A stretch of 64,000 bases of DNA from a virus (IMGVR_UViG_3300027793_000055:64001-128000), one strand, 5' to 3'. Positions 8,637 to 55,280 are shown, counted from the stretch's first letter. The notes: generated by a model not told the origin, from the letters alone. A program made the numbers and translations.

Positions 8637-8667
8637 AGTTCACCCTCTTGTTTAATTTAAGTAATTA

Positions 8668-10008
8668 TCAGATTATATTCCAATTGTTACCGGTACCAGC
8701 AACAATTGTGATTGACTGATATGGACCATTAAGACCAAAGCTAGCTTCACCATCAATAGTACCAGAAACGATATTGACACTATTTTCTGTACCATCACTC
8801 TTTTTGAGTATTAGTACACGGCCGGCTTGTGGCGTACTTGGTATTGCAACGTTAAAAGTGCCAGCTGTAGCATTAGCAAGAATAACATTATCACTAGCTA
8901 CAACAGTATAAGCACCGGTTACTTCTGTTACACCAAATCTTACACTACCACTTAAGAAAGAACCAACACTAGAAGTGATTGTATCTACTGTTATATTGGC
9001 AGCCAAATCAAGAGAAGCGGTTGGACCTGATCCGTTAGTTACTATAATATTTGGATCACTGCTTGATACCTGCGAGACACCTAAACTACCAGTTACAGCA
9101 ATCGTAATTGAACCAGAACCTTTTGTAATTCCGATATTTGAACCAGCAACCAAATCACCAAGTTGTAATGTACTACCGGATCCGATTAATAGTTGACCGC
9201 TAGTAACACCGCTAGCATTAATTCCTGTACCACCATTTGCTAATGGTACAATACCAGTTAAATTAGCTGCTGGCAGATTTGTTAAGCCAGCACCAGAGCC
9301 AGTAAACGATGAAGCACTTACTGAGCCGGTAACATCCAAATTACCTGATATAACTGTACTACCAGATACTTTTAGACCCGGATAGATAAGAATCTTATCT
9401 TCTGGTAAGCCCGTATATCTTACATATGCTGCGTCTGGATTTGATGAAAGACTTGCTGTTCCATAAATAAGGACATTGCCACTAAATTCTGCAGCACTTG
9501 CACTTAATACGGCAAATGAACCGGTTGATGAAGAGAGGTTTGTAAGACCGGTTAATGTTGTTAAATCACTAGTAATTGAACTTGATAGTCTTACTGTTAC
9601 GGCACCATTTACATCTGGAGCACTAGCCGAGATATTTGGACCTGCAACAACTGATTTGACTAAACCAGTTAGACCAGCAGCGGAACCACTAAAGCCTACT
9701 GAACTACTGACTAGTCCAAATATATTAACAGAACCAGAGAAGGTATGCGAATCATTTAGATTATCACCAAATTGTGTTGAACCACTAGTGAAAACAGTTG
9801 ATGCTGATGTAATTGTATTTACAACTAAATTGGCAGCAGTTAATGTGCCACCAACTGTTACATTACCATTTGTGAATACTGAACCAGTTACAATTACTTG
9901 TGATGAACTAACACTTAAGCTAGCACCACTACCCGTCAATTGTACAGCGGTACCACTTACTTGTACTTGGTTTCCCGCTAATACTTTAACATTTGCTACA
10001 TTAGCCAT
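8668..10008 (-). CDS. Tail/head fibre protein, S/G/T-rich
   Basis: ~12 [ST]GS motifs, LANGGTG fibre motif; C-terminal domain (LNGPYQSIT) shared with 10028..10528. Confidence 0.7.
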   Translation of the reverse strand: MANVANVKVLAGNQVQVSGTAVQLTGSGASLSVSSSQVIVTGSVFTNGNVTVGGTLTAANLVVNTITSASTVFTSGSTQFGDNLNDSHTFSGSVNIFGLVSSSVGFSGSAAGLTGLVKSVVAGPNISASAPDVNGAVTVRLSSSITSDLTTLTGLTNLSSSTGSFAVLSASAAEFSGNVLIYGTASLSSNPDAAYVRYTGLPEDKILIYPGLKVSGSTVISGNLDVTGSVSASSFTGSGAGLTNLPAANLTGIVPLANGGTGINASGVTSGQLLIGSGSTLQLGDLVAGSNIGITKGSGSITIAVTGSLGVSQVSSSDPNIIVTNGSGPTASLDLAANITVDTITSSVGSFLSGSVRFGVTEVTGAYTVVASDNVILANATAGTFNVAIPSTPQAGRVLILKKSDGTENSVNIVSGTIDGEASFGLNGPYQSITIVAGTGNNWNII

Positions 10009-10027
10009 TTTATAAAACTCCTATAGT

Positions 10028-10528
10028 TTAGAATACATACCAATCTGTTCCATCGTGGACTAATGTAATTGATTGATAAGGTCCATTTAATTCAAATGAT
10101 GAAGCACCATTAACTAAATTTGGTGAACTTGGCAGTACAATTACAGAACCACTAACTGCATCGGCTTTAATAACATAGTATTCTCCGGAGTTAGCTATGG
10201 AAGCACTTGGTAAAGTAATAGAGATCGACGAACTATCACTATTTTTAGCGAATACTGCTCTTTCTGTCGTCAACAAAGATACAGAAGAACTAACAATTAA
10301 TTTTGTTAGATCTGAAGATGGTAAGCCTATATAATTTGAAGAAGAAATACTAGAAGCTGTTAATTGGGTTACAGTCAGTGTATCGAATATTGAACCGGTT
10401 ATATAATCTAGTATCTGTTCTGCTGTGGCTCTTTGAGTTGTCAAACTACCGCTATCGACAATCGGAAACAGATCATCAGAGGTTACTTGAGATGCTGCAG
10501 GTAGTTGAGATATTTTGACATTTGCCAT
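10028..10528 (-). CDS. Short fibre/adaptor protein
   Basis: MANVKISQLP...DDLFPIV..G..T.RAT N-terminal fibre-attachment motif; C-terminus LNGPYQSITLV...W as in 8668..10008. Confidence 0.6.
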   Translation of the reverse strand: MANVKISQLPAASQVTSDDLFPIVDSGSLTTQRATAEQILDYITGSIFDTLTVTQLTASSISSSNYIGLPSSDLTKLIVSSSVSLLTTERAVFAKNSDSSSISITLPSASIANSGEYYVIKADAVSGSVIVLPSSPNLVNGASSFELNGPYQSITLVHDGTDWYVF

Positions 10529-10591
10529 TATTTTTCCTCTTTTATATATAGTTTATAAATACCTTTCGGTAATAAATATATATCTCCACTA

Positions 10592-10858
10592 TCAAGGTGG
10601 TGGTGCTGTACTTGTACAACTCTCAATAATAAGGGCATCATTATTCTCAGCTAATAAAACGTCTGAATTTTCAGCTAAAATAAAACAGCTTTCCTCAATT
10701 ACAGTTTGCTGCGGTACTCTTAAGAAATCAAACAGTGCTGCATTTCCATCAGTATCTGTAGAATTATATGATATAGAGCCAGAATTAACAAAAAATCTTA
10801 CTTTTGGGTAAGCTTTTATTTTATTATATATTATGTCTCCGTCATTAAACTTTTTCAT
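10592..10858 (-). CDS. Hypothetical virion protein
   Basis: 88-aa ORF with upstream ATATTTA motif; C-terminal ILAENSDVLLAENNDALIIE repeat. Confidence 0.5.
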   Translation of the reverse strand: MKKFNDGDIIYNKIKAYPKVRFFVNSGSISYNSTDTDGNAALFDFLRVPQQTVIEESCFILAENSDVLLAENNDALIIESCTSTAPPP

Positions 10859-10886
10859 TAATTACATCACCATTATTTAAATATCT

Positions 10887-11864
10887 CTACATATTTAATT
10901 TCAGCTTAAATGCTATGCTATCTATTTCTCTCTTTCTTACCGGAGTAGCTAATTTGGCTATACCTATTAGCTGTCCCATCTCATCATAGATTCCTATTTT
11001 TGAAATAAATGTTGTTTTTTCAAAAGGCGGTTCAATTTCATTATAATTTACTTGTACAATATTTTTGATAGAATTATCTGAGTTTTCCAGAAATTGTGTA
11101 GAGCCAGTTACTTTTAAATATTGTTGTCCATACTCAACATATGTTGGATTATTTGAATGGTTAAACTCGCCTTTTTCAGCATGCGCAAACATAGTTATTG
11201 TTGGTATTTCTTCAATACCATCAAAAGAAAAATCAAAAGAAGAAGAAGGTACAATGTTATCACCTTCTGAACCGGTTGTCAGAAAATAGAACCATTTTGG
11301 AGCATAGGTTGTTACTGGTTCGAATATATTAAAATTATCGACATATGAATTATCTAATTCCCAAGAACCGGTTAATAATGCAAAACCTTCTGAATATAAT
11401 ACAACACCGGCAACACTTCCAGTATTTGGACCATAAACTTCTACTAATTCACCATTTCTTTTTATATCTTGTAGTTCTGCTATAAGAGTACCGGTAACAT
11501 ACCACTTGCAGCTTATTGAACCTTTTTTAATGCTCTTGCCATAAAAAATAGATGGTATACTGATTAATCTACATTCTTGTGTTCTTTTATTACCAAGAGG
11601 ACTATTAAAAGCATAATGTGGGCTTAGGTATTTATAATAATCAAATGTATTTTTTAAAGCCAACAGATGACTTTTCGGATAGCTAGATACCGGCTCACCA
11701 GATAAAAAATGTTCCGAACTTAATGTAGCAGTTAGTTGATAATTCGAACCGGTGATTATATCACCGTATTGAAAATCAGTATTATAACTATCTGTATCTG
11801 TTGTTTTAAAGGAAGAGAGGCTTCCTTCTTTTGTTATGAAAGGATAAACACTTGAAGTTAACAT
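10887..11864 (-). CDS. Baseplate/tail-collar protein (DUF3751-like C-terminus)
   Basis: TFISKIGIYDEMGQLIGIAKLATPVRK; HAEKGEFNHSNNPTY shared with 11976..12998. Confidence 0.6.
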   Translation of the reverse strand: MLTSSVYPFITKEGSLSSFKTTDTDSYNTDFQYGDIITGSNYQLTATLSSEHFLSGEPVSSYPKSHLLALKNTFDYYKYLSPHYAFNSPLGNKRTQECRLISIPSIFYGKSIKKGSISCKWYVTGTLIAELQDIKRNGELVEVYGPNTGSVAGVVLYSEGFALLTGSWELDNSYVDNFNIFEPVTTYAPKWFYFLTTGSEGDNIVPSSSFDFSFDGIEEIPTITMFAHAEKGEFNHSNNPTYVEYGQQYLKVTGSTQFLENSDNSIKNIVQVNYNEIEPPFEKTTFISKIGIYDEMGQLIGIAKLATPVRKREIDSIAFKLKLNM

Positions 11865-41794: not shown

Positions 41795-42097
41795 CTATTC
41801 TTCTTTACCGGTAGCTTCTATTTCATCATACATACTATTTTTCTCATTTTCATTTAAATCTCCATATTCACTTTTAATGGATTTTTTTAGTATGTCTGTT
41901 ATTTTTACTAATTGCTCATTTGAACGCTGTAGAGTTTCAAGATATTTGGCAGCAGTCAAGCCAACTTCTCTATGACGTTCTTGACTGCCACCAATATAAA
42001 CAGCTATATCTCTTAAGAGACTATCAGCTTTTTTACGATCTTCTCTTATATTATCAATAGCTTCTTCAAGATACTTTTCGATCTGTTTATTATTCAT
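41795..42097 (-). CDS. Hypothetical helical protein
   Basis: 100 aa, 4-nt overlap with the sigma-factor gene. Confidence 0.6.
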   Translation of the reverse strand: MNNKQIEKYLEEAIDNIREDRKKADSLLRDIAVYIGGSQERHREVGLTAAKYLETLQRSNEQLVKITDILKKSIKSEYGDLNENEKNSMYDEIEATGKEE

Positions 42098-42858
42098 AAT
42101 ATATCATTTTCCCAATCAAGTTTAAAATCTCTATATTTATCTCTTAATCGATTTAAACTTGAAGCTATTTGTTTGGTATTTAGATTCGTTATCTCTCTTA
42201 TATACAGATAGATTGCTTTTTTATTGAAAATTTCAATACGATCAGGATTCTCCAATAAAATTTTAACAGCTTGTAAAACTTTATCATCGTTCTGTTTTAA
42301 TTCTTCTGAATCCCATTCTTTCATCTCGCTCCAAAGAGCGCCCCAAAATTCTTCTCCCTCTCTATCTGAATCATATGTGTTATGAACCAATAGGTTATCT
42401 TCTTCGCTCTCTTTTTTGATATCTTCGAAATATACTTCGTGTTTTGCTTGATGAGAATTCTTTTTGACTTTATGAATAAACCAATTTTTGGTTATGACTG
42501 AAAAGTAACTAAATGCCTTAGAGCCTTTTAATGGGTCAAATTTATCCAATATGGTTGTTAACCAAACCTTGCACTCGCTCTTTAGGTCTTCAATATTTGG
42601 TAAACTAGTGAACTTATAAGTAAAAACTATTTTATCTACCAACTCATTAAAAACAGGGCCGATATAAGCAACATAAAGTTCTTGTCTTTTTTTTGGATCT
42701 CGTACTTGAGCATATTGTACGATTGCATCTTCATGAACTTTTGAAAAATATATTTTTCCTTGTGTTGTTCTTACTTGAGTTGTTTTATTAAAGGTTACGT
42801 TTGTTTGGTTTGAATTCAAACTGTTTTGGCTCTGGCTCTTCTTCGGACGTGGCATCAA
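42094..42858 (-). CDS. Phage RNA polymerase sigma factor (gp55-like late sigma candidate)
   Basis: YF..VHEDAIVQY...EDLKSEC...LDKFDPLKGSKAFSYFSVITKNWFI resembles sigma region 2. Confidence 0.75.
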   Translation of the reverse strand: MMPRPKKSQSQNSLNSNQTNVTFNKTTQVRTTQGKIYFSKVHEDAIVQYAQVRDPKKRQELYVAYIGPVFNELVDKIVFTYKFTSLPNIEDLKSECKVWLTTILDKFDPLKGSKAFSYFSVITKNWFIHKVKKNSHQAKHEVYFEDIKKESEEDNLLVHNTYDSDREGEEFWGALWSEMKEWDSEELKQNDDKVLQAVKILLENPDRIEIFNKKAIYLYIREITNLNTKQIASSLNRLRDKYRDFKLDWENDIL

Positions 42859-43138: not shown

Positions 43139-43383
43139 TTATTATAGTCCTGCCTCTTGATATTTTTCATATCTTCCTTAAGACTTTCCTTATTTTCTTC
43201 AATAAATGTTCGAACTAATTGCCCACTATTATTTTTTTGAGCAACCGTTATTGAAGAACTTAATACCTTCTTAAGTGAATCTATTGTTCCACACTTTTCA
43301 CAATCTGTTAAGCGAGTGGACATATCATGAAAAGTATCGAACTGCTGTTCACAGCTTTTACATTTATATGTATAAACTGGCAT
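43135..43383 (-). CDS. FmdB-family zinc-ribbon protein
   Basis: MPVYTYKCKSCEQQFDTFH.M....DCEKCG. Confidence 0.85.
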   Translation of the reverse strand: MPVYTYKCKSCEQQFDTFHDMSTRLTDCEKCGTIDSLKKVLSSSITVAQKNNSGQLVRTFIEENKESLKEDMKNIKRQDYNK

Positions 43384-43562
43384 CAGTCTACTTCGTGTTC
43401 AACTTGGTTAACAGAGAAAGCTGGTGGATTTTTAACAAAAAGATTACCATCAACACTTTCCCATTCTAATTCTTCTAATACTGGAACTATATCGCTTTGT
43501 TCTAGTAGACTCTTTTGTAGAGCCATCATTAATGAGCCCATAGCTTGTTTTGATAATTTCAT
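43383..43562 (-). CDS. Small hypothetical protein (59 aa, below ORF-track cutoff)
   Basis: MKLSKQAMGSLMMALQKSLLEQSDIVPVLEELEWESVDGNLFVKNPP...; GGAG RBS; TGATG coupling to the zinc-ribbon gene. Confidence 0.75.
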   Translation of the reverse strand: MKLSKQAMGSLMMALQKSLLEQSDIVPVLEELEWESVDGNLFVKNPPAFSVNQVEHEVD

Positions 43563-43583
43563 TTCTTTACTCCAATTAATGTT

Positions 43584-44696
43584 TCAAATATCTTTATTGA
43601 TATTTTTGACTGTCTCTATTATATGCTGAATCTGTGCTTTTTGTAAAGAAGGATAACTAGGAAGAACCACAGAATAATTATTTACTAAATTGCCATTCTG
43701 ATTTGTTCTGTTCGTAGTTATTTTATTTTTTAAGAATTCTTGCTTCTCATGAGTATAAAACATAGGTCTTATGTCTATTCCGTTTTTATTAAAATAACCA
43801 AGAGCTTTATTGTAAGTAATTCCATTTGTAAATCTTAGACCAAACATCCAGCAGGAGTGTTCTGTGTTGGTTTCTTGTACTTGAACTTGTACAAAATCTA
43901 AATCTTTAAAAGAATTTGTATATGTATTGTATAAATCTATTTTTAGATTTAATATTTCATCTAGACTTTCTAGTTGACCTAATAAAAACGCCGCTTGTAC
44001 ATTTGTCAAGCGATAGTTTTGAGCTATTTTATCATGCTTAAATCTTTGGTTTGTATTACCTTGATTAATAAAAGATTTTAGATATTCTAGAATTTGTTTA
44101 TCATTGATTATGACTGCTCCACCTTCACCACAGGTAATAGTTTTATTACCAAAGAACGAAACAGCAGAAGCAAAAGTTTGTGTACCGGAAAATTTACCAT
44201 TATATTTTCCAAACAGTCCTTCACAATTATCCTCAACAACTAATAGTTCTGGATATTTCTCTTTTATCAAATCAATATTTATTATATTTCCAAGATTATG
44301 TACACACAATAAAGCTGTTGTATGTAAGTCTGATTTGTCTAAAAGTTCAAATAATTCATTTAAATCATAGTTCCAGGAATCAATATTACAATCTACAGAT
44401 ACTAAAGAGAATTTTTCTTCATATAAAAAAGTATTCCAAGCTGCAACATAAGAATTGTTTGGTACTATTAGTGTTTTAATATTTGGATATTTAATCTGAA
44501 TGGCTTTAGAGACGCAATGCATACCGGTAGTACCATTACTTACTAAAAACAGATTTTCTGTTTTCAATACTTCCTTAAGTTTATCTGTTGCTCTCTGTAT
44601 GAACTCGCCTTGCGAAGATATCCATCCGGATTCTATAGCCTCATATGCATATTTTTTTGTTTTTTCATTAATAAATGGATCGTATACTTTTATCAT
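43584..44696 (-). CDS. perA: GDP-perosamine synthase-like PLP aminotransferase (DegT/DnrJ/EryC1/StrS)
   Basis: SGWISSQGEFI, VSNGTTGMH, VVEDNCE, SFFGNKTITCGEGG (PLP lysine motif closely matching perosamine synthases), NYRLTNVQAA, LPSYP. Confidence 0.85.
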   Translation of the reverse strand: MIKVYDPFINEKTKKYAYEAIESGWISSQGEFIQRATDKLKEVLKTENLFLVSNGTTGMHCVSKAIQIKYPNIKTLIVPNNSYVAAWNTFLYEEKFSLVSVDCNIDSWNYDLNELFELLDKSDLHTTALLCVHNLGNIINIDLIKEKYPELLVVEDNCEGLFGKYNGKFSGTQTFASAVSFFGNKTITCGEGGAVIINDKQILEYLKSFINQGNTNQRFKHDKIAQNYRLTNVQAAFLLGQLESLDEILNLKIDLYNTYTNSFKDLDFVQVQVQETNTEHSCWMFGLRFTNGITYNKALGYFNKNGIDIRPMFYTHEKQEFLKNKITTNRTNQNGNLVNNYSVVLPSYPSLQKAQIQHIIETVKNINKDI

Positions 44697-44751
44697 ATTT
44701 TGATATATCAGTTATAGTATTTTTAAAATATAATACTATGTTTTAATTTCC

Positions 44752-45060
44752 TTAGTATGTTTTGTGCTTTCTTTGTATATTTTTACCGTCATCTAATTCT
44801 TTACCTGCAGCAGCTTCGGTAATCATTAGAATTACTTTTTGATCAATCTCGTCAATCAACTGGTTTCTTTGAACATTAAGATCTGTTGCTCTTTTCAAAC
44901 AGTCCCAAAGACGTTTAGCGCCCTCTTCATTCGAAAAGTATTCTGTCTTATATTGTTCAAAATCCATTTTACGAATTTTATATATTTCTTCTTGATTATT
45001 CCACATTTTTGTATCTATAGTAAATAATTTATCAATTAAACTTCCTAGTGTATCCGCCAT
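44752..45060 (-). CDS. DUF4254-like protein
   Basis: DTLGSLIDKLFTIDTKMWNNQE...ATDLNVQRNQLIDEID matches the DUF4254 pattern as recalled. Confidence 0.65.
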   Translation of the reverse strand: MADTLGSLIDKLFTIDTKMWNNQEEIYKIRKMDFEQYKTEYFSNEEGAKRLWDCLKRATDLNVQRNQLIDEIDQKVILMITEAAAGKELDDGKNIQRKHKTY

Positions 45061-45069
45061 ATTAAACTC

Positions 45070-45702
45070 CTATTTAATTTTTTTACAAGGCATTCCAACA
45101 TATGTGCCAGATTCTAAAAGATCTTTCACTACTACCGCTCCAGCACCAATTATTACATTACTAGCAATTTTTTTATTTTCGATTATAATACAATTTGTAC
45201 CGAGATAGGCTAAATTTTGTATATTTACATTTCCAGATATATTACAACCTGGCGAGCAGGTAACAAAATCTTCGATTCTAGAATCGTGACCAAGAGTACA
45301 ATTTAAATTAATATGTACAAAATTACCAATTACAATATTTGTAGTAACAGATACATGAGAACATAATATATTTCCAAAACCTAACTTAACAAATCGCTCA
45401 TCTAATACAACAGATTTATGTATAAGATTTGGAAAAGAAATATTATTTTTATTTTTTAACTTAGAATAAATTTTTTGTTTTATATTTGGACTTCCAACTG
45501 CTATAAAACACTCGATATCTTCATTAATATTAAAAAAATCTTTCTCTGAAATTACAGATCTGCCATTAATTTGGGTGCCTAAGTCTTCAGAAGAATCTTC
45601 TGCTACAAAAACAACATCTGCCAAGCTACCAAAGTTTTCATAAATTATGAACTCTACTTCTTTAGCAAAACCTTTTGTACCAAATATATATTTTTTTTTC
45701 AT
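45070..45702 (-). CDS. perB: Sugar N/O-acetyltransferase, NeuD/PglD/PerB family (hexapeptide repeat)
   Basis: IFGTKGFAKEV N-domain, FIAVGSP..K, LIH, left-handed beta-helix with GHD (NCTLGHDSRI), GAGAVVVKD...YVGMP; ATGA overlap with GT9. Confidence 0.85.
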   Translation of the reverse strand: MKKKYIFGTKGFAKEVEFIIYENFGSLADVVFVAEDSSEDLGTQINGRSVISEKDFFNINEDIECFIAVGSPNIKQKIYSKLKNKNNISFPNLIHKSVVLDERFVKLGFGNILCSHVSVTTNIVIGNFVHINLNCTLGHDSRIEDFVTCSPGCNISGNVNIQNLAYLGTNCIIIENKKIASNVIIGAGAVVVKDLLESGTYVGMPCKKIK

Positions 45703-46586
45703 ATACAATTTTTTAAACTTTCTTTGAATTGATCAATTGTTGTAACAATGGTTTTATTTTGCATATGCTTCCACTCAAAACTACTCCAATGTAAGCCATG
45801 TGTTACCTCAATTCTAGGCTTAGATATATCGCAAAAGTCAGAATGTGTTAAACAGCTTAATCCAGAACAACAGCCGATAAACATATCGACCAAATTGTAC
45901 AACTCTGCATTAGACATAAAAGAACCATTATAAAAATGGATATCTATTCCATATTTTTTTGCTAATGAATCAAAATATTCTGGCTTATTTTTTCCACTAA
46001 AAATAATACTATATCCTCTATCTTCAGCAAAATCACACAAAATTTTTATATAATTTAAATTAAATGGAGATTGATTAGAGAAATTTTCATATTCTAATAA
46101 AATAAACTTATTTTTATCATTATTAATACTTTTAACAAAGTGTTGTGCTTCTAGTTTTTCTTCTTGAGTTAAAAATATATTTGGAATAAAGTCACAAGCA
46201 AAATTTGTAATTCCGGATGTTTTATATTTTATGATATTCAATAAATTATCTTCTTGTCTTGAAAGTTCGATTCTGTTCTTGAGAGAATAATAATATGGAG
46301 CTACAAACTTGACTATATCATATTTTGAAAATAACTCTTTCTCATTCTGTTCGATAAAAAAGGTCATATTTACATAACTATGCAAATCATCGCCTGTGTG
46401 TATATTTTCATATATTAATATATTATCAATATTTTTATTATTTTTTAATATATGTACATATTTTTTACTGGTCAGCCAAGTTATTTGACAATCTGGTTCT
46501 ACTATTTTGTGATGTTTTACAATTGGTGTACAATTTAAAATATCACCACCTGCTCCACAATTAATAATTAAAATTTTGTTTCCCAT
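45699..46586 (-). CDS. Glycosyltransferase, GT9 (WaaF/RfaF-like)
   Basis: KILIINCGAGGDILNCTPIVK....P.CQITWLT; DMFIGCCSGLSCL (equivalent to G.DSG..H). Confidence 0.7.
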   Translation of the reverse strand: MGNKILIINCGAGGDILNCTPIVKHHKIVEPDCQITWLTSKKYVHILKNNKNIDNILIYENIHTGDDLHSYVNMTFFIEQNEKELFSKYDIVKFVAPYYYSLKNRIELSRQEDNLLNIIKYKTSGITNFACDFIPNIFLTQEEKLEAQHFVKSINNDKNKFILLEYENFSNQSPFNLNYIKILCDFAEDRGYSIIFSGKNKPEYFDSLAKKYGIDIHFYNGSFMSNAELYNLVDMFIGCCSGLSCLTHSDFCDISKPRIEVTHGLHWSSFEWKHMQNKTIVTTIDQFKESLKNCI

Positions 46587-46587
46587 A

Positions 46588-47565
46588 TTATTTTAATGAA
46601 GTTTTATCGTGCTCAAACATCATTTTTGCTAGCTGTTTAAAACCTACTTTACGTTTCCAGCCTAATTCCTGTTCTGCTCTTTTTGGATCTGCCAAAAGGA
46701 AAGCAACATCGTGTGGCCTAAAAAGTGTTTCAGTTGAAACCATTTGTTTTTCTGGATCAAGGCCGGCAAGAGTAAAGATTTCTTCTACGAATTCTTTAAC
46801 GGTGTGTGTTTCACCGGTACCAATAACATAATCTCTTGGCTCACTATTTTGAAGCATTAACCACATAGCTTCTACATAATCGCCGGCAAAACCCCAATCA
46901 CGTTTTGTATCAATACGACCTAATTCTAGTTTATCTTGTTTACCAGCTAAAATATTAGCCGCAGCTTTTGTAATTTTACGAGTTACGAAATGCTCTCCAC
47001 GTCTTGGTGATTCGTGATTAAAGAGAATACCAGAACAAGCAAACATATCATATGATTTACGATATGTAGCAGTTAGGTTGTGTGCAAAAACTTTAGCACA
47101 AGCATATGGTGAAATTGGAGAAAATACAGTATCTTCATTTTGTGGTCCAGGCATATCACCAAACATTTCTGATGTTGACGCTTGATAAAAGCGGATACTT
47201 TTATCGATACATCGAATTGTTTCCAAGATATTCATTGGACCTACAGCATCAATATGTACTGTACTCATCGGTGAACGGTAAGACTCTCCAACGTGTGATT
47301 GTGCGGCAAGATTATAGATTTCATTTGGTTTATGTTTATCGATTAATCTCCACATCGCAGAGGCATCAGTAATGTCTCCAGTTTCAATCAAAAAATCTGG
47401 ATTTGCTAAATTGTGTTGTATACCGGCTAATTTTGCTGTGTCATTCGATGCAGTATATCTTAGCAAGCCTACTACTTTATAATTTTTTGAAAGAAGTAGA
47501 TCGGCAAGATACGAACCATCTTGTCCATTTACTCCAGTTATTAATGCTACTTTTTGTTTTGTCAT
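46588..47565 (-). CDS. gmd: GDP-mannose 4,6-dehydratase
   Basis: ALITGVNGQDGSYLA, YNLAAQSHV, FYQASTSEMFG, SPYACAK, GILFNHESPRRGEHFVTRKIT, RDWGFAGDYVEAMW; start set at ATG 47565. Confidence 0.97.
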   Translation of the reverse strand: MTKQKVALITGVNGQDGSYLADLLLSKNYKVVGLLRYTASNDTAKLAGIQHNLANPDFLIETGDITDASAMWRLIDKHKPNEIYNLAAQSHVGESYRSPMSTVHIDAVGPMNILETIRCIDKSIRFYQASTSEMFGDMPGPQNEDTVFSPISPYACAKVFAHNLTATYRKSYDMFACSGILFNHESPRRGEHFVTRKITKAAANILAGKQDKLELGRIDTKRDWGFAGDYVEAMWLMLQNSEPRDYVIGTGETHTVKEFVEEIFTLAGLDPEKQMVSTETLFRPHDVAFLLADPKRAEQELGWKRKVGFKQLAKMMFEHDKTSLK

Positions 47566-47573
47566 TTTATTCC

Positions 47574-48746
47574 TCAATTCAATAAAACATTGACCAAATC
47601 TTGGGTTATTTTTTGTGGATTGCAATACTCTTGCAAAAATTTACGTGATTCTATACCGGTTCGTTTTAATTGTTCAGGGTTCTCTTTCCACAAATTATAT
47701 GCTTTCCTAAGCTGGTTTCGTAAATCATCTAAATCTGTTTCAACCAATTTCATTTCTACTGATGAGTAATCCTTAGTAAAAGCACCGGTACAGGTCATAA
47801 ACCTGGAATTTATAAAGAAATTATCCGGATGAATAAAATCTATATGGCCACCTTTATCTGGTGTCATCACAGGTAATTCTCGGCCTATAGCTTCAGCAAT
47901 TGTTAATCCAAAACCCTCGCCTCTTGTCGGCAAACAAAATAAATTAGAATTATCTATTATTATGTCAATTTCCTGTTTTGATAAAAGACCGGTTACTACA
48001 TTAATTTTGCATTTCATTGGATCTAGATAATGACTTATTGAATTTTTATAATTTTTAACTTCTGATAATATGTGATTTCTGTCTTCTTCGAACTTACCAG
48101 TCGCTGGTCCAAAGCCATATGTCTTTATTGTTAATAGAGCATCTTCTTGATGATAAAACTCACTACAATAAGCTTTTATCAGTAAATCAAAACCTTTTCT
48201 TGGTGTCCACTGAGACATAGATAGAATATTAAATACTTTTTTCTGTTCTTTTCTGATTGGTTCAGAAAAATCAATCAAATATGGAATCTTATACGTAGGG
48301 AGTCCCGTTTGTGACTCAAAAACTTGCTTATTCCAATCGCAAGGTACAATAATTTGGTGAAAATATTTTTTATAATTTTCTAACCAAAATGCCGGTACCC
48401 TATCTGTTTCCCAAACAACCATATTGGTATTTTTTTTAGAATTTTGGAAAATGGGATCAAATTTTAAATGATCAATTATTAAATTTGGTGTTAAAAACCA
48501 AGCAACATCATAATCTTTTTTACAAAACTCTACCATTTCATCACTATTTTTTAATTCATATTTTTCAATTAATTGTATTTCTGATTTGGACAGTTTGGCT
48601 TGTTCAAAATTCCAAGTATAAAGACCTAATTCAAAAGCACCCGGATTCATTTGTAAAAACGAATCTAAACATTTTAAATAACTTCTAGCTGCAACAGAAT
48701 ATCCAGACGGTCCTCTGAATGTGGAGACAAACAATAATCTTTTCAC
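47574..48746 (-). CDS. Glycosyltransferase GT4 (GT-B)
   Basis: GPSGYSVAAR, WETD, LSMSQWTPRKGFDLLIKAY, PTRGEGFGLTIAEA (E-x7-E). Confidence 0.9.
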   Translation of the reverse strand: MKRLLFVSTFRGPSGYSVAARSYLKCLDSFLQMNPGAFELGLYTWNFEQAKLSKSEIQLIEKYELKNSDEMVEFCKKDYDVAWFLTPNLIIDHLKFDPIFQNSKKNTNMVVWETDRVPAFWLENYKKYFHQIIVPCDWNKQVFESQTGLPTYKIPYLIDFSEPIRKEQKKVFNILSMSQWTPRKGFDLLIKAYCSEFYHQEDALLTIKTYGFGPATGKFEEDRNHILSEVKNYKNSISHYLDPMKCKINVVTGLLSKQEIDIIIDNSNLFCLPTRGEGFGLTIAEAIGRELPVMTPDKGGHIDFIHPDNFFINSRFMTCTGAFTKDYSSVEMKLVETDLDDLRNQLRKAYNLWKENPEQLKRTGIESRKFLQEYCNPQKITQDLVNVLLN

Positions 48747-50008
48747 AGTAAATCACCAATAATCATTTCTTTATTTTCGGTATTATTTTCTAATGAGCCG
48801 CCCCAAACACTTTCAGCAAATTGCCTGAAAACGACTTCTTCGGTGAAAGTCTTCAATACATGTTCTTGTAACTTTTTCGCCTGTGAAAGATTTGGTGCAT
48901 AGTTCTTAACCAATTCTCTCATAGCTTCCCTAACAGAACTATGTTTAACATATGCCCACTTAGAATCAGCCTGAATTACTCCATCCCAAACTGCTTCTTT
49001 CTGTACTTCCTTTAGCTCAAAATCGATTTTAACACAGTGTGAGCGCATTTTAATCTTGCCGGTATCCTTTTCTTTCTTCGGGGCTTTCAGAAAGTCAGTC
49101 TGTCCACTCCAAAATGGTGCGGCGACGGGCAATCCTGCTGATGCAGCCTCAAACATAGGAATACCAAAACCTTCACCGTGCGTTGTACTTACAAAAGCCT
49201 TAATTTTTGGATGCTGATAAAGACCAGCCATTTCTTCATCAGTCATATTACCGTGAAGAAGATGGATTTTACATTTTCTATCTTGAGGTAAGGTAGATAG
49301 TAGATTTTTCATTCTAACTTCTGTTAGAGTTTTATCCATAATATTATTTTTAACTGAATTTGCCTTAACTACTAGTCCAACTTCTTCATCTTTAAATTCT
49401 TCAACAAAAGCACGAATTGTTGCTTCTATATTCTTTCTTGGTCCCCATTGAGCCACTGTCAAGAAATTAAAATCATTAGGTAGTTCTAATTCTGGTACAA
49501 CTGGTACCAAATTTTTAACTGGAAACCCAACTACATCTATTGGCTTAGTATTACGGAATTCAAACTGTTCTTTTGTAGACTGATTTACAGCCTGATAAGC
49601 TGTATTATTAAACACATCTCTAGAATGTTCTGATATAACAATAAACTTATCCATTAGTATGGATTTTTCAATCCATTTTGGAGAAACTTTTGTTGTTTCA
49701 ATACCAGCAGTATAGCCAATATTAACTGGCGCTATTTTTTCAAATTCATTTGGTATAGAAATCTGTATTGATACATCAAACTGTTCCTTATTCTGGATTC
49801 TTTTTTGTGATTCTAGAATAATTGGCATCAGCAATTTTACTTCTTCTGATGTTTCTAGAAGATTTCCTGTTCTTCCCCAATTTGTTGGCAAGATAGTAAT
49901 ATCAAAATGATCTGGGAACCTTGCTAATGAATGAATAGCCAAACGAGCCATTTCTCCATAACCACTTCTACTTAATACTGGTCCTCTAACAATTACTTTC
50001 TTTTTCAT
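48743..50008 (-). CDS. Glycosyltransferase GT4 (GT-B)
   Basis: GPVLSRSGYG, AGIET, FLTVAQWGPRKN, TTHGEGFGIPMFEA; start at ATG 50008 with GGAG RBS. Confidence 0.9.
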   Translation of the reverse strand: MKKKVIVRGPVLSRSGYGEMARLAIHSLARFPDHFDITILPTNWGRTGNLLETSEEVKLLMPIILESQKRIQNKEQFDVSIQISIPNEFEKIAPVNIGYTAGIETTKVSPKWIEKSILMDKFIVISEHSRDVFNNTAYQAVNQSTKEQFEFRNTKPIDVVGFPVKNLVPVVPELELPNDFNFLTVAQWGPRKNIEATIRAFVEEFKDEEVGLVVKANSVKNNIMDKTLTEVRMKNLLSTLPQDRKCKIHLLHGNMTDEEMAGLYQHPKIKAFVSTTHGEGFGIPMFEAASAGLPVAAPFWSGQTDFLKAPKKEKDTGKIKMRSHCVKIDFELKEVQKEAVWDGVIQADSKWAYVKHSSVREAMRELVKNYAPNLSQAKKLQEHVLKTFTEEVVFRQFAESVWGGSLENNTENKEMIIGDLL

Positions 50009-50019
50009 CTGTTCTCCGA

Positions 50020-51261
50020 TCAAAATGTTTTAAGTGTCCAACGATTATATTTTCTATTTTCCCACACACCGGGCTTGATTGCATCTTGAATTAATACATC
50101 CCATTGTGGTAATAAAATATCTGGATTATAATTGTCCAAAAGATGTTGTCGGCCTTTTCTGCCCAACTCTTCTCTTTGTTCTTTAGACATATTGTATAAT
50201 TTTACCAAAGCATCAACAAAGTCTTCTTTTGAAATTCGATCTTCGTAGATGTAAGGAACTTGTTGTGAGCCTATCACAGCTTTTGATGCCGGTTTAATAC
50301 CAACTCCAAAATATTCCTGCCCATTAAATACTTGCTCTTGTAAGCCTCCGGTCATATTAGCAATTACAGGTGTTTCACAAGCAAGCGATTCCATACAACT
50401 CAAACCAAAACCTTCTGCATCAGATATACAAACTGTTACGTCAGCGGCATTATACATAGCTACCATTTCTTGTGGTGGTGATCTGTTTTTAGAAAATTTT
50501 ACTTCTCCATTGGTTAGACCAAGTTCAACTATTATTGCCTCAAGATCTTGACCGTGACCATCTTTAGGATCGGTATGCATCAATAAACAAGCTTTATCTT
50601 TACCGACAATATCTAAAAAGTCTTTAAACCACCAAACTACTGAACCAGACATTTTTCTTCTTGCATTTCGCGAATTCCAAAATACAAGGAATTTATTATT
50701 AAAATGCTGTTTACGAATATTATCTATGTTTTGCTGTGGCAATTTACTAAACAAATTCATATCTACGCTATGTGGTAGATAGACTGATTTAACACTTGGT
50801 GCTACTGTCTTGACAATATCATCTGTTAATTTAGATATTGTAACTATTATATCAGTTGAATCATAGAAAGGCTTGTTAAATTTTGGATATGGATAATTAT
50901 CCCAAACGTGATAATAGATTAAAGGAACCTTGTCACGAATCTCGTCTTCCATATCCCAGAGCCATTCATAGAATCGCGGATCTGTCATAAACCAGATAGC
51001 ATCGGGTCTATGATCTCTGAGAATAGCACGAATAACATCTGGATTTCCGTATCCATCAACAGGAATTACTAAGAGATCATCACCATAAACATCAAATTTT
51101 TGTGGTCTATAGTCGTGATGTTTTACAGCACCTCCCAAGCAAATAAACTCATACTTACCTGTTTTATGAAGGTAGTCAATCATATATTTCGTTTGTGTGC
51201 CGACGCCAGAACTAGACAAAGGATGATCACTTATGATCAATAATTTTGTTTTTTTATTCAT
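50020..51261 (-). CDS. Glycosyltransferase GT4 (GT-B)
   Basis: ISDHPLSSSGVGTQ, VWDNYPYP, NSRNARRK, SDAEGFGLSCMESLACETPVIA..TGGL.EQ. Confidence 0.9.
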   Translation of the reverse strand: MNKKTKLLIISDHPLSSSGVGTQTKYMIDYLHKTGKYEFICLGGAVKHHDYRPQKFDVYGDDLLVIPVDGYGNPDVIRAILRDHRPDAIWFMTDPRFYEWLWDMEDEIRDKVPLIYYHVWDNYPYPKFNKPFYDSTDIIVTISKLTDDIVKTVAPSVKSVYLPHSVDMNLFSKLPQQNIDNIRKQHFNNKFLVFWNSRNARRKMSGSVVWWFKDFLDIVGKDKACLLMHTDPKDGHGQDLEAIIVELGLTNGEVKFSKNRSPPQEMVAMYNAADVTVCISDAEGFGLSCMESLACETPVIANMTGGLQEQVFNGQEYFGVGIKPASKAVIGSQQVPYIYEDRISKEDFVDALVKLYNMSKEQREELGRKGRQHLLDNYNPDILLPQWDVLIQDAIKPGVWENRKYNRWTLKTF

Positions 51262-51276: not shown

Positions 51277-52092
51277 TTATGGACAGTAAATTGTTTTGTG
51301 AAATTCACATTTTGTACAAGATAGTTTATTTTTAATAAACTTCTGTTTTTCAACGTTTTTAACACAGGTATCCAGTATTTTAAGAGCATTATCTACTTTT
51401 TTTGGTCCACTTGTTACGCGAAAGATTTCTACTTTATCTTTTTTGGCTGTTCTCTTTAGTAGACCAAAATACGTCTCAACATTCTTTGGATCAAGCTTGT
51501 GTTTCTGACAGAAAAAGTGCTTATAGTATGTTAGCTGGTAAGTTGTTTCTTTTTCTGTTTTCTTTTCAATGTCCCAACCCCAGCTACAAGTCTTCCAGTC
51601 AATAATGTGATACTTTCCATCCGGAGTTTTTAGGACTGAATCTATAAAACCATAGAAATCAAAATTAGGATTTCCTTCGATATTCTGCCTTATTTCTTCT
51701 TCAGCTGAGACTACTTCGTATTCACCAAAAACATTTTTAACTTCTGGTAAAATAAGTTCAACCAACTCGTCTCCCTGCTTTTTCATTTCTTCTATCAAAT
51801 CAGCAGAAACAGTTATACCATTTTCTTTTAATTTAGTAATTTCTTCTAGAAATCGATTTTGGAAGTATTTTTTCTTATCAATTTCTTCGCTATCATCTTT
51901 TAGAAGGCCAAGTTGGGATCTCTTTTTTTCCAAAAGAAGTGACTGTTCTACAGTATCATGTACTGCTGTACCAAATACACTAAATTCATTTCCTTGAAAT
52001 AAGCGAACCTTATCAACACGTGTAATTTTGTATTTAAATGGACAAAATACCCAATCCTTCCAAGCAGAATAGGAAATATAATCTAAACTCAT
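51277..52092 (-). CDS. PD-(D/E)XK exonuclease, Cas4/RecB/AddB-like with predicted Fe-S staple
   Basis: ISYS..K....CP, FGTAVH, GFIDSV...IIDWKT, YQLTYY, C-terminal CTKCEF...YCP (1+3 Cys). Confidence 0.85.
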   Translation of the reverse strand: MSLDYISYSAWKDWVFCPFKYKITRVDKVRLFQGNEFSVFGTAVHDTVEQSLLLEKKRSQLGLLKDDSEEIDKKKYFQNRFLEEITKLKENGITVSADLIEEMKKQGDELVELILPEVKNVFGEYEVVSAEEEIRQNIEGNPNFDFYGFIDSVLKTPDGKYHIIDWKTCSWGWDIEKKTEKETTYQLTYYKHFFCQKHKLDPKNVETYFGLLKRTAKKDKVEIFRVTSGPKKVDNALKILDTCVKNVEKQKFIKNKLSCTKCEFHKTIYCP

Positions 52093-54485: not shown

Positions 54486-55280
54486 ATGGTCACTAAACAC
54501 ATCTTAAAACTAGCTGTTCTTTTATTGTCTGTTTTATCATTAAACTGTACTTCACATACAAATTGTCTTGGTTTAGGTGATATTAAAGACTCAATAATAA
54601 ATATTACTCATACTCATAATAAGACAGTACTTCCTTACGATTCTTTTGTTAAGTTGATTAAAAACGTTTCAGATAAGAATGGAAATATTTTATTTTCTTC
54701 AGTTGCTTCAGGAGTCATACTTTCACATGGTAGTAACCATACAAAAATTTTAACTGCGCGACACTTCTGTGTTGGTTTAGAGAGTAAAGTAGATACAATT
54801 CCAGAAGAACTATTTCCCATAAAAGATGATACAACCATTATTGATGTAAAAAATGAAATACATAACATGTTGTTTTATGCATTTGATGATAAACACGATA
54901 TATGTGTTGTATTGACAAAAAAAATAGAGCAACCGGCAACTATAATATCACCGGTTGCTCCACTAAGAGGAGAAAAAGTTTTTAATATAGCTGCACCGCT
55001 TGGCATCTCAGATGGAAAAGCGGTGCTTTTATTTGAAGGATATTATGCTGGCGATTTTTATTCACCGCTAATTCGTTCAAACTCTTCCCTATATTCCATA
55101 CCCACAAAGAGCGGTAGTTCCGGTTCTGCAATCTTCAATGAACACGGAGAATTAATAGGTATTACCTATGCTGGTGTAAGTGAATTTGAAAATATCTGTA
55201 TTGCAGTACCCTGGAAAGATCTTAAAAGATTTATAGAATTTATAGAATCAGCACCGATACCTGATCTAGATATTGAATAA
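54486..55280 (+). CDS. Trypsin-like serine protease with signal/lipoprotein-like peptide
   Basis: MVTKHILKLAVLLLSVLSLNC; TARHFC (His), DICVV (Asp), KSGSSGSAIFN (Ser); ACTAGTTA motif 5 nt upstream of ATG 54486. Confidence 0.85.
   Translation: MVTKHILKLAVLLLSVLSLNCTSHTNCLGLGDIKDSIINITHTHNKTVLPYDSFVKLIKNVSDKNGNILFSSVASGVILSHGSNHTKILTARHFCVGLESKVDTIPEELFPIKDDTTIIDVKNEIHNMLFYAFDDKHDICVVLTKKIEQPATIISPVAPLRGEKVFNIAAPLGISDGKAVLLFEGYYAGDFYSPLIRSNSSLYSIPTKSGSSGSAIFNEHGELIGITYAGVSEFENICIAVPWKDLKRFIEFIESAPIPDLDIE

What the first reader, a model, noticed from the sequence alone, without database searches (positions are those of the whole stretch)
43584..51261. Phage-encoded GDP-N-acetylperosamine pathway plus four glycosyltransferases next to the virion module
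Seen: eight tightly packed, co-oriented genes (GT4, GT4, GT4, Gmd, GT9, acetyltransferase, DUF4254, PLP aminotransferase) immediately upstream of the sigma factor and baseplate/fibre genes. Established: Gmd makes GDP-4-keto-6-deoxymannose, perosamine synthase (SFFGNK motif) aminates it and PerB-type hexapeptide acetyltransferases give GDP-N-acetylperosamine, as in E. coli O157 and Caulobacter. No Wzx/Wzy/ABC exporter or undecaprenyl-phosphate priming transferase is recognisable, which argues against O-antigen export. Inference: the phage builds an oligosaccharide on a cytoplasmic acceptor, most plausibly its own virion proteins (precedent: glycosylated mycobacteriophage virions, giant-virus fibrils), alternatively DNA or host LPS core via the GT9.
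Basis: partly seen in the sequence, partly recalled or inferred. Interest (0 to 1): 0.85.

Follow-up and report, generated by a model that had tools for sequence, protein, structure and literature searches.

The report
Swappable perosamine sugar cassette in phage
An uncultured 188-kb T4-like water phage carries eight membrane-free enzymes that should turn the host's GDP-mannose into N-acetyl-perosamine and attach it with four transferases. The block is a swappable cassette in a sugar-gene island found across much of its lineage, but whether it coats the virus particle or the host surface is still unknown.

Summary
Eight co-oriented, nearly abutting genes at 43584-51261 (minus strand) encode three GT4 transferases, Gmd, a GT9-fold transferase, a NeuD/PglD/VioB/PerB-family N-acetyltransferase, a 102-aa DUF4254-like protein and a perosamine-synthase-like aminotransferase. 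They lie between an exonuclease/PhoH block and the late-sigma and baseplate genes of a complete 187,750-bp T4-like phage.

The GDP-N-acetylperosamine reading is the simplest one and is supported by homology and context, not by assay. The genome has no ManC, priming transferase, GT2 or flippase-like membrane protein, and no ThyA-type base hydroxylase.

New here:
- The block sits in a glycan island at a fixed slot upstream of the sigma gene, found in most relatives sampled.
- The nearest relatives (flanks 72-90% identical in protein) have swapped GT9-AcT-s102-Per for other cassettes, with breaks at gene boundaries.
- The 102-aa protein belongs to an almost purely viral family (236 clusters). It abuts Per-type aminotransferases and is sometimes fused to GNAT acetyltransferases.

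The acceptor is unresolved: virion proteins about 40%, host envelope lipid (lipid A-core type) about 33%. GT9 and GT4 are also the LPS-core enzyme families, so the lack of an exporter does not exclude the host surface.

This scan has already reported similar swappable phage glycan islands on other DNA.

The parts
50020..51261 (-). GT4a, a soluble GT-B glycosyltransferase and a conserved left-hand part of the island
   Evidence: PF00534 at 5.6e-15, PF20706 at 35 bits, phrog_2170 at 3e-26. It is 87-90% identical in the nearest relatives L111 and L112. No hydrophobic segment.
48743..50023 (-). GT4b glycosyltransferase, also a conserved left-hand part
   Evidence: PF00534 at 5.2e-7, phrog_2170 at 5.6e-19. 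It is 76-77% identical in L111 and L112. Nucleotide homology with L111 runs down to 48782.
47574..48746 (-). GT4c glycosyltransferase, a paralogue of GT4b that fills variable slot A
   Evidence: PF00534 at 2.1e-10. It clusters with GT4b. It has no nucleotide counterpart in L111 or L112.
46588..47565 (-). Gmd, GDP-mannose 4,6-dehydratase. The ORF finder extends it to a TTG at 47625, but the ATG at 47565 is the likely start.
   Evidence: PF16363 at 1.6e-119. TIGR01472 scores 396 bits against a cut-off of 415. PDB 1n7g matches at 2.7e-99, with the glycine-rich N-terminal stretch and the SPYAxxK stretch aligned to identical residues. Start. It is the only SDR in the genome.
45699..46586 (-). GT9-fold glycosyltransferase, first gene of swappable cassette B
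   Evidence: Heptosyltransferase I N-terminus at 4.9e-6. The A3 profile hits PDB 3tov at 3.8e-7. The AF2 model has pLDDT 92, and Foldseek ranks 3tov, WaaC and WaaF first, then TibC. Only 25 homologues were found, all from metagenomes.
45070..45708 (-). Left-handed beta-helix sugar N-acetyltransferase of the NeuD/PglD/VioB/PerB family
   Evidence: TIGR03570 scores 167.5 bits against a cut-off of 160.8. PDB matches: 4m9c at 4e-28, VioB, PglD, and PerB (4ea7) at 1.6e-17.
44752..45060 (-). s102, a 102-aa helical-hairpin protein from a virus-specific DUF4254-like family. Probably an accessory to the amination and N-acylation steps.
   Evidence: See alignment A2. Members are 44-78% identical to the window protein across viral loci, with a nearly invariant C-terminal HKTY. 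It lies next to Per. GNAT-s102 fusions exist.
43584..44696 (-). Per-like PLP aminotransferase, a candidate GDP-perosamine synthase and the last gene of cassette B
   Evidence: PF01041 at 1.8e-59. Best NCBIfam match is the LegC family (a GDP-sugar aminotransferase), below its cut-off. PDB: 7b0m at 1e-36, Caulobacter perosamine synthase 3bn1/3dr4 at 3e-35, next class at 1e-24. The SFFGNK lysine aligns with Per. JGI names the homologues 'perosamine synthetase'.
51277..52092 (-). Left flank: DEDD-type exonuclease, part of the conserved backbone
   Evidence: phrog_69 at 8e-21. It is 83-87% identical in L111 and L112.
43383..43562 (-). Right flank: a conserved 59-aa ORF that fills the apparent gap after Per and overlaps the next gene (TGATG)
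   Evidence: Read from the sequence. Nucleotide homology with L111 and L112 resumes at 43569-43583. Small ORFs occupy the same position in L111, L112 and L001.
42094..42858 (-). Right flank: gp55-like late sigma factor, the anchor of the island's fixed slot
   Evidence: phrog_234 at 7e-8. A profile of it finds 393 IMG/VR contigs.

Best explanation
The block is a phage-encoded, membrane-free glycosylation cassette.

Supported by homology and context:
- Gmd dehydrates host GDP-mannose to GDP-4-keto-6-deoxymannose. The phage has no ManC of its own.
- The Per-like aminotransferase makes GDP-perosamine.
- The beta-helix acetyltransferase makes GDP-N-acetylperosamine.

Inferred:
- The 102-aa helical hairpin (s102) is an accessory subunit of the amination and N-acylation steps.
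- The GT9-fold enzyme, which travels in the same swappable sub-cassette, transfers this sugar.
- The three GT4 enzymes add further sugars from host nucleotide sugars.

Assembly happens in the cytoplasm, on an acceptor that needs no phage-encoded lipid primer, flippase or polymerase. I judge the phage's own virion proteins the most likely acceptor, only narrowly ahead of host envelope lipid. Swapping of cassettes between close relatives would change the glycan made, and so the surface sugar the lineage presents.
For: - Enzyme identities.
- Gmd is the only SDR in the genome, and no other route from its product is encoded.
- No ManC, Bac_transf or GT2. The only GT4 genes are these three. No Wzx/Wzy-like multi-pass protein in 255 ORFs. 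All eight proteins lack transmembrane segments.
- No ThyA homologue. Every DNA-glycosylation route found in the papers searched needs one (bioRxiv 10.1101/2025.06.16.659550).
- The island abuts the late sigma and baseplate genes with no intergenic break.
- Of 80 related sigma loci, 57 carry Gmd/SDR genes and 30 carry DegT genes just upstream of the sigma gene.
- Cassette replacement at gene boundaries in relatives whose flank proteins are mostly 72-90% identical.
- Clade-specific sugar clusters of this design glycosylate virions in giant viruses, and two-GT sets do so in actinophages (general knowledge; Freeman 2023, as cited in PMC12619734).
- TibC, a protein-glycosylating GT9, is among the fold matches.
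- s102 is linked to Per and to acyltransferases, and GNAT-s102 fusions exist.
Against: - No assay and no cultured relative exists. s102 is found in no cultured phage.
- Aminotransferase specificity rests on about 30% identity to Per plus context. Its best NCBIfam match (LegC) is below the cut-off.
- The acetyltransferase is closer to WeeI, VioB and PglD than to PerB.
- Nothing marks a virion acceptor. There are no mucin-like Ser/Thr runs. The fibre-like proteins are only moderately Ser/Thr-rich.
- Expression timing could not be assigned.
- GT9 plus GT4 is the classic LPS-core enzyme set.
- Bacterial DUF4254 genes sit beside GT9 genes in 6 of 6 loci examined. That fits a lipid acceptor at least as well as a protein one.
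Confidence: 0.4

Rival explanations
1. Host envelope remodelling. The soluble GT9-fold and GT4 enzymes work at the cytoplasmic face of the inner membrane on host lipid A-core, or on a host undecaprenyl-linked intermediate. The altered glycolipid is exported by the host's own MsbA/Lpt or Wzx/WaaL machinery. This changes the infected cell's surface, for example to block superinfection or to stop progeny sticking to debris.
For: - GT9 (WaaC/WaaF) and GT4 (WaaG) are the LPS-core families. The fold matches are WaaC and WaaF.
- This route needs no primer, flippase or polymerase, which fits.
- Bona fide bacterial DUF4254 genes lie next to a Pfam GT9 gene in 6 of 6 loci.
- This is the standard reading of 'cell wall synthesis and modification' genes in large cyanomyoviruses (PMC12801897).
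- Cassette hypervariability resembles that of O-antigen loci.
Against: - No lytic phage has been shown to do this.
- Proven phage O-antigen modifiers (Gtr, Oac) are membrane proteins of temperate phages, and none are encoded here.
- A Per homologue and one unknown protein family of these viral islands also occur on a contig binned as a giant-virus MAG (L071). Giant-virus hosts have no LPS.
- The host of this phage is unknown, so even the presence of LPS is unproven.
Confidence: 0.33
2. DNA hypermodification. The transferases glycosylate modified bases in phage DNA to resist restriction.
For: Phage glycosyltransferases commonly modify DNA (Pyle 2024, as cited in PMC12619734; bioRxiv 10.1101/2025.06.16.659550). 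All three GT4 proteins also match the Pfam 'GT4-conflict' family, two of them above its cut-off.
Against: - No thymidylate-synthase-family hydroxymethylase or hydroxylase in a complete genome. The routes to 5hmC, 5hmU and 5hoC described in the papers I searched all use one.
- A GDP-aminosugar pathway with four transferases is not known for any DNA modification.
- The genome assembled as one contig from ordinary metagenome reads.
Confidence: 0.04
3. Same architecture, different chemistry (independent of the acceptor question). The aminotransferase or acyltransferase makes a sugar other than N-acetyl-D-perosamine. Examples are a different C4 configuration, a different acyl group, or a non-GDP substrate.
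For: - No equivalog model is passed by the aminotransferase.
- Its best PDB match is an unnamed 'sugar aminotransferase', 7b0m.
- The acetyltransferase is nearer to UDP/dTDP-sugar enzymes (WeeI, VioB, PglD) than to PerB.
- In other viral loci the same Per/s102 pair is combined with GNAT enzymes, FkbM methyltransferases or a second SDR.
Against: - Gmd is adjacent and is the only dehydratase in the genome.
- The two best named relatives, Per and LegC, both use GDP-sugars.
- PLP-lysine motif identical to that of Caulobacter Per.
Confidence: 0.2

Closest known systems
GDP-N-acetyl-D-perosamine pathway of Caulobacter crescentus (Gmd, Per, PerB) and E. coli O157 (Gmd, Per, WbdR)
   Same: The same three enzyme families in the same logical order. 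The aminotransferase's second-best solved relative is Caulobacter Per (3bn1, 2.6e-35), with an identical SFFGNK lysine motif. PerB is among the acetyltransferase matches.
   Different: - Only about 30% identity to Per.
- The acetyltransferase is closer to WeeI, VioB and PglD.
- It is encoded by a lytic-type T4-like phage.
- There is no ManB/ManC, Wzx/Wzy or ABC transporter.
- It has an extra viral 102-aa partner protein that those bacterial pathways are not known to include.
Glycan gene clusters of giant viruses (Mimivirus R141/L136/L142 plus glycosyltransferases; clade-specific clusters in Megavirinae; chlorovirus GMD)
   Same: A virus-encoded dehydratase, PLP aminotransferase and N-acetyltransferase with several soluble transferases. 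Content differs between close clades. There the acceptor is the virion. (From general knowledge.) One Per homologue lies on a contig binned as a giant-virus MAG (L071).
   Different: The host here is bacterial. The chemistry is GDP-mannose-based rather than UDP-based. Glycosylation of this phage's particle has not been observed.
Actinobacteriophage virion glycosylation (Freeman et al. 2023, cited in PMC12619734)
   Same: Phage glycosyltransferase genes placed beside structural genes. The acceptor is a cytoplasmic protein, and no exporter is involved.
   Different: Those phages encode only transferases and use host sugars. They glycosylate the C-termini of capsid and tail-tube proteins. No sequence relationship to them was tested or found here.
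'LPS / cell wall synthesis and modification' gene sets of large T4-like cyanomyoviruses (P-SSM2, S-SCSM1, S-SCSM2R; PMC12801897); Synechococcus phages S-SKS1 and ACG-2014f
   Same: Large aquatic T4-like phages with Gmd, other SDRs, DegT aminotransferases and many transferases. Function is unproven. ACG-2014f has Gmd about 2 kb from a DegT gene.
   Different: The cyanophage aminotransferase is only 23% identical. No s102 homologue was found in any cultured phage.
LPS inner-core assembly enzymes (WaaC/WaaF, GT9; WaaG, GT4), and the bacterial DUF4254-GT9 gene pair
   Same: The same two transferase families, the same soluble or peripheral enzymes, and no dedicated exporter. DUF4254 genes abut GT9 genes in 6 of 6 bacterial loci.
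   Different: The phage GT9-like protein does not reach Pfam PF01075. s102 covers only positions 4-62 of the 144-position DUF4254 model. The donor here is presumably a GDP-sugar, not ADP-heptose.
TibC/AAH autotransporter heptosyltransferases (GT9 enzymes that glycosylate proteins)
   Same: GT9 fold acting on a protein in the cytoplasm. TibC appears among the fold matches (rank 14).
   Different: The match is much weaker than to WaaC or 3tov. The iron-binding dodecamer features were not examined.

Membership tests
GDP-mannose 4,6-dehydratase (Gmd) | Extended SDR with an N-terminal glycine-rich NADP motif, a catalytic Tyr-xxx-Lys, and full-length similarity to characterised Gmd | tested here: met
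   PF16363 at 399.7 bits (cut-off 27). The eleven PDB matches with E at or below 1e-60 are all Gmd or an unnamed entry (2.7e-99 to 3e-86). The glycine-rich N-terminal stretch and the SPYAxxK stretch align to identical residues. TIGR01472 scores 396 bits, just under its cut-off of 415.
GDP-perosamine synthase (Per/RfbE) | Fold-type I DegT aminotransferase with the PLP lysine (not the His of ColD-type dehydratases) | tested here: met
   PF01041 at 1.8e-59. SFFGNK aligns with the same motif of Caulobacter Per. The lysine is invariant in 18 homologues.
GDP-perosamine synthase (Per/RfbE) | Acts on GDP-4-keto-6-deoxy-D-mannose to give the D-perosamine configuration | not testable with these tools
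   Indirect only. Gmd lies three genes upstream in the same cluster and is the only dehydratase. The best named relatives, Per and LegC, use GDP-sugars. JGI's automatic name for the homologues is 'perosamine synthetase'.
PerB-type perosamine N-acetyltransferase | NeuD/PglD-type left-handed beta-helix with an N-terminal nucleotide-sugar-binding domain | tested here: met
   TIGR03570 at 167.5 bits (cut-off 160.8). PglD_N domain at 1.1e-5.
PerB-type perosamine N-acetyltransferase | Closest to PerB rather than to UDP/dTDP-sugar acetyltransferases | tested here: not met
   PDB order is WeeI 4m9c (4e-28), VioB (4e-21), PglD (1e-19), then PerB (1.6e-17). It is filed under the wider family only.
Glycosyltransferase family 9 | Sequence membership (Pfam PF01075) | tested here: not met
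   No Pfam match at E 0.01. There are only N-terminal matches to heptosyltransferase models, far below their cut-offs.
Glycosyltransferase family 9 | GT-B fold closest to solved GT9 enzymes | tested here: met
   The profile hits 3tov at 3.8e-7. Foldseek ranks 3tov (4.7e-14), WaaC and WaaF first.
Glycosyltransferase family 4 | Pfam Glycos_transf_1 C-terminal domain above its cut-off | tested here: met
   55.7, 29.8 and 40.9 bits against a cut-off of 26.4.
DUF4254 (PF14063) | Score above the curated cut-off over the 144-position model | tested here: not met
   17.7 bits against a cut-off of 27, covering positions 4-62 only. 25 of 33 homologues give sub-threshold or weak hits, best 1.6e-6. It is treated as a distant, shortened viral relative.
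Wzx/Wzy- or ABC-dependent O-antigen/capsule pathway | Priming phosphoglycosyl transferase, flippase or ABC exporter, and polymerase or ligase | tested here: not met
   No Bac_transf. There is no multi-pass membrane protein other than an 844-aa protein outside the window.
Phage DNA glycosylation systems | ThyA-family dNMP hydroxymethylase or hydroxylase that provides the acceptor hydroxyl | tested here: not met
   PF00303 is absent from a genome rated 100% complete.
Virion glycosylation systems (actinophage or giant-virus type) | Glycan demonstrably attached to capsid, tail or fibril proteins | not testable with these tools
   Only position is known: the block lies next to the late sigma and baseplate genes. 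No mucin-like acceptor tracts were found.

The most novel reading that the evidence does not exclude
The 102-aa DUF4254-like hairpin (s102) is an obligatory, virus-specific subunit of a widespread viral amino-sugar module made of an N-acyltransferase, s102 and a Per-type aminotransferase. It is present in at least 193 IMG/VR contigs, ranging from 188-kb T4-like phages to a 636-kb megaphage. The module feeds a cassette-swapping system that sugar-coats the virions of a large aquatic phage lineage, which would amount to glycan-based surface variation in bacteriophages.
Probability: 0.25. Interest if true: 0.75.

Novelty: new member of a known kind. Interest (0 to 1): 0.45.

Why it matters
Sugar-gene islands are common in large aquatic phages, and none has an established target. 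This example is unusually clean in four ways:
- The genome is complete.
- The enzymes are few, all soluble, and have a predictable product.
- Near-isogenic relatives differ only by a 3-kb cassette.
- There is a conserved, uncharacterised viral partner protein.

That makes the open question of what these islands glycosylate testable by reconstitution and by comparing relatives. If virions are the target, glycan variation would be a new dimension of phage surface diversity. It would bear on host recognition, grazing and aggregation in natural waters. If the host envelope is the target, this would be the first lytic-phage LPS-remodelling system that works without membrane proteins.

Tried and rejected
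Synteny rests on IMG/VR loci.
- Megablast of the block against cultured phages found no match. A single-protein IMG/VR scan also found nothing, so profile queries were needed.
- s102: no solved or BFVD structure resembles the hairpin. Weak hits to the N-formyltransferase C-terminal dimerisation domain (10 of 33 members, best 6e-4) are noted but not relied on.
- The unknown island families c4_235 and c9_280 gave no significant profile match to the GT9-like family. c3_299 gave only 59% probability.
- Timing: the sigma-70-type scan is not enriched (63 found against 68 expected). The T4 late motif TATAAATA is not enriched (10 against 13.6). A candidate lineage motif, AACTATTTA, precedes genes elsewhere in the genome but not in the block. 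Expression class is therefore undetermined.
- Ser/Thr-rich acceptor search: no mucin-like tracts.
- Host assignment: not achieved. MAG labels of s102-bearing contigs (Bacteroidales, Saccharimonadia, Woesearchaeota) look like mis-binned phage contigs.
- PDB entry 7b0m could not be traced to a paper.

Full report
WHAT IS THERE. The window is bases 64001-128000 of a single-contig virus record of 187,750 bp (34% GC, CheckV completeness 100%). It has a T4-type gp23 capsid gene (PF07068, 1e-57) and eight tRNA genes in the window. Almost all genes are on one strand: 236 of 255 ORFs.

At 43584-51261 on the minus strand lie eight ORFs with spacings of -4, -4, +8, +1, -10, +9 and +55 nt:
- Three are GT4 glycosyltransferases (Pfam Glycos_transf_1 above its cut-off, phrog_2170).
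- One is Gmd (PF16363 at 1.6e-119; best PDB matches are GDP-mannose 4,6-dehydratases, 2.7e-99 and weaker, with the cofactor and catalytic motifs aligned).
- One is a 295-aa protein with only weak sequence matches to heptosyltransferases. Its family profile hits the GT9 structure 3tov. Its AlphaFold model (pLDDT 92) is closest to 3tov, WaaC and WaaF.
- One is a left-handed beta-helix acetyltransferase that passes NCBIfam TIGR03570, the NeuD/PglB/VioB family.
- One is a 102-aa protein with a sub-threshold DUF4254 match.
- One is a DegT-family aminotransferase.

The exonuclease and PhoH genes lie upstream. A 59-aa ORF, a zinc-ribbon protein, a gp55-like late sigma factor and the baseplate genes lie downstream. 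One refinement applies: 'GT9' and 'DUF4254' hold at the level of fold or family, not at Pfam thresholds.

CHEMISTRY. Gmd is the only SDR in the genome. Whatever follows GDP-4-keto-6-deoxymannose must therefore use the two remaining tailoring enzymes.

The aminotransferase keeps the PLP lysine in an SFFGNK motif identical to that of Caulobacter GDP-perosamine synthase. That enzyme is its second-best solved relative (2.6e-35). The next enzyme class follows at 1e-24. Its best NCBIfam match is the LegC family, another GDP-sugar 4-aminotransferase, but below the cut-off. Metagenome homologues carry JGI's automatic name 'perosamine synthetase'.

The acetyltransferase belongs to the family that includes PerB, but it is closer to WeeI, VioB and PglD.

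GDP-mannose to GDP-4-keto-6-deoxymannose to GDP-perosamine to GDP-N-acetylperosamine is thus the most economical reading. It rests on homology plus context, not on an equivalog-level match. The phage has no NTP_transferase (ManC) gene, so GDP-mannose must come from the host.

WHAT THE GENOME LACKS. The genome has no Bac_transf priming enzyme, no GT2, and no GT4 other than these three. A hydropathy scan of all 255 ORFs finds no flippase- or polymerase-like multi-pass protein. All eight proteins of the block lack transmembrane segments. There is no thymidylate-synthase-family gene. The known routes to glycosylated DNA bases (5hmC, 5hmU and the recently described 5hoC) all start with such an enzyme (bioRxiv 10.1101/2025.06.16.659550). 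DNA is therefore an unlikely acceptor.

THE BLOCK IS A CASSETTE IN A RECURRENT ISLAND. A profile of the late sigma factor finds 393 IMG/VR contigs, several of 185-194 kb. In 57 of the 80 best loci, Gmd/SDR genes lie about 2 kb upstream of the sigma gene. In 30 of them a DegT aminotransferase lies there too. A glycan island thus sits at this slot in most of the relatives sampled.

The two nearest relatives are L111 and L112, whose flanking proteins are mostly 72-90% identical to the window's. They align at nucleotide level in three stretches:
- from PhoH to the end of GT4b (window 54063-48782);
- across Gmd (47565-46605);
- from just after the Per stop codon onward (43569-41796).

They have no counterpart for GT4c or for GT9-like/AcT/s102/Per. 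In place of the latter, L111 carries a GT2, an unknown 270-aa protein and a double methyltransferase. L112 leaves that slot empty. It fills the slot between GT4b and Gmd with a GT4-GT2 fusion, another GT4 and two methyltransferases. The N-acetylperosamine branch with its GT9-fold transferase is therefore a 3-kb module exchanged at gene boundaries between close relatives.

More distant syntenic relatives (L001, L009, L011, L027, L047, L058) keep the ends and vary the middle, with islands from about 7.5 to 15 kb.

THE 102-AA PROTEIN. This is the most conserved element of the module.
- In 80 IMG/VR loci found with the aminotransferase profile (168 contigs in all; Per only 37-49% identical), a homologue 46-78% identical is present in about 70. 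It usually lies directly upstream of Per and directly downstream of an N-acyltransferase, either GNAT or beta-helix.
- When sampled by s102 itself (193 IMG/VR contigs), 75 of 87 loci have a DegT gene. Of those, 64 are of the Per subfamily.
- An exhaustive profile search finds 236 clusters at 50% identity. Three of them are GNAT-s102 fusions.
- The nearest ESM Atlas clusters are 81-100% viral.
- In 185,579 prokaryote genomes, only 11 MAG contigs match, and they look like mis-binned phage.
- No cultured phage has it. The only INPHARED hit is a 636-kb uncultured megaphage, where it again abuts Per.
- The AlphaFold model (pLDDT 93) is a long helical hairpin with no informative structural neighbour.
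- 25 of 33 members weakly match DUF4254. No functional paper on that family was found.
- In six of six bacterial loci examined, a bona fide DUF4254 gene lies beside a Pfam GT9 gene.

I infer that s102 is a small accessory or scaffolding subunit of the amino-sugar branch. Its exact role is unknown.

THE ACCEPTOR. The first half of that holds. The second does not follow. GT9 and GT4 are exactly the families that build the LPS core on lipid A at the cytoplasmic face, and that product is exported by the host's MsbA and Lpt systems without any primer or Wzx.

In favour of virions:
- The island sits at a fixed position beside the late sigma and structural genes.
- Clade-specific sugar clusters of the same design glycosylate the fibrils of giant viruses.
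- Virion glycosylation is proven in actinophages.
- A Per homologue lies on a contig binned as a giant-virus MAG (L071).
- A protein-glycosylating GT9 (TibC) is among the fold matches.

In favour of the host envelope:
- The enzyme families.
- The bacterial DUF4254-GT9 pairing.
- The O-antigen-like hypervariability.

No mucin-like Ser/Thr tracts exist in the virion proteins. Fibre-like proteins in window 1-11000 are 24-28% Ser+Thr against 13.6% for the genome, which is ordinary for fibres. Transcription timing could not be assigned. I put virion proteins at about 40%, host envelope lipid at about 33% and DNA at about 4%. The remainder goes to other acceptors.

COMPARISON AND NOVELTY. Phage sugar islands are known: cyanomyovirus 'cell wall synthesis and modification' genes (PMC12801897) and the glycosyltransferase core genes of aquatic jumbo phages (PMC12619734). 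This scan has already reported similar swappable islands on other DNA (e1-5862678, e1-3066956, e1-5821699).

A phage GDP-N-acetylperosamine branch was not found described in the library searched. In kind, though, this is a new member of a known class. The parts that go beyond it are the nucleotide-level cassette map and the virus-specific s102 family tied to Per-type aminotransferases.

CAVEATS.
- All function is inferred from sequence.
- The locus samples are capped at 80 per scan and are not phylogenetically independent.
- The host is unknown.

Noticed in passing
L102-L107 (bacterial loci: five from the class of Bacteroidales MAG G001, one from a Brevinema MAG): Every bona fide DUF4254 gene examined (6 of 6, about 200 aa) lies immediately beside a Pfam GT9 (heptosyltransferase-family) gene. 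This is a conserved pair with no functional literature in the library searched.
   Followed up: partly
P0157, P0158, P0175 (metagenome proteins): These are natural fusions of a GNAT acetyltransferase to the s102 hairpin. In the loci, GNAT is also found fused to a c9_280-family protein (L084 6723-7997) and to an SDR (L056 11495-12919).
   Followed up: partly
window 43383-43562 (-): A 59-aa ORF with its own Shine-Dalgarno sequence fills the apparent 200-bp gap after Per and overlaps the next gene (TGATG). Small ORFs sit at the same position in relatives. It falls just under the 60-aa ORF listing limit.
   Followed up: partly
window 43618-43647 (-): The best sigma-70-like site in the region (TTTACA, 18 nt, TATAAT; 11 of 12) lies inside the last codons of Per. 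It points at the 59-aa ORF, zinc-ribbon and late-sigma genes.
   Followed up: no
genome 32219, 35248, 36816, 38236, 39121, 49310, 55006, 61222 (outside the window); window 62403: The motif AACTATTTA(T) lies 6-39 nt upstream of start codons. Several copies follow a GGTGGGTTTTGTTTTT terminator-like tail. They sit mainly in the region that holds the capsid gene, so this is a candidate lineage-specific late promoter. There is none inside the glycan block.
   Followed up: partly
window 54923-54964 (-): A strong 18-bp-stem terminator-like hairpin with a T-run lies upstream of PhoH. It may mark the start of the transcription unit that runs into the glycan block.
   Followed up: no
window 1-11000 (-): A run of fibre-like ORFs (166-840 aa) has 24-28% Ser+Thr against a genome mean of 13.6%. 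None matched PHROGs families in the neighbouring set tested. There are no pure Ser runs.
   Followed up: partly
L002-L080 (IMG/VR loci): Three unknown protein families recur beside the acyltransferase-s102-Per core: c3_299, c4_235 and c9_280, in about 20-33 loci each. They share an N-terminal G-x-G-D motif reminiscent of GT9. Only c3_299 shows a weak profile link to the GT9-like family (59% probability).
   Followed up: partly
genome 24676-27210 (-), outside the window: This 844-aa protein is the only large one in the genome with several hydrophobic segments (seven, at residues 458-681). It was not annotated here.
   Followed up: no
L009, L027, L047, L058, L112: In relatives the GT4b-type gene is 646-676 aa. 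In L112 it is a GT4-GT2 two-domain fusion. The window instead has two separate GT4 paralogues (426 and 390 aa).
   Followed up: partly
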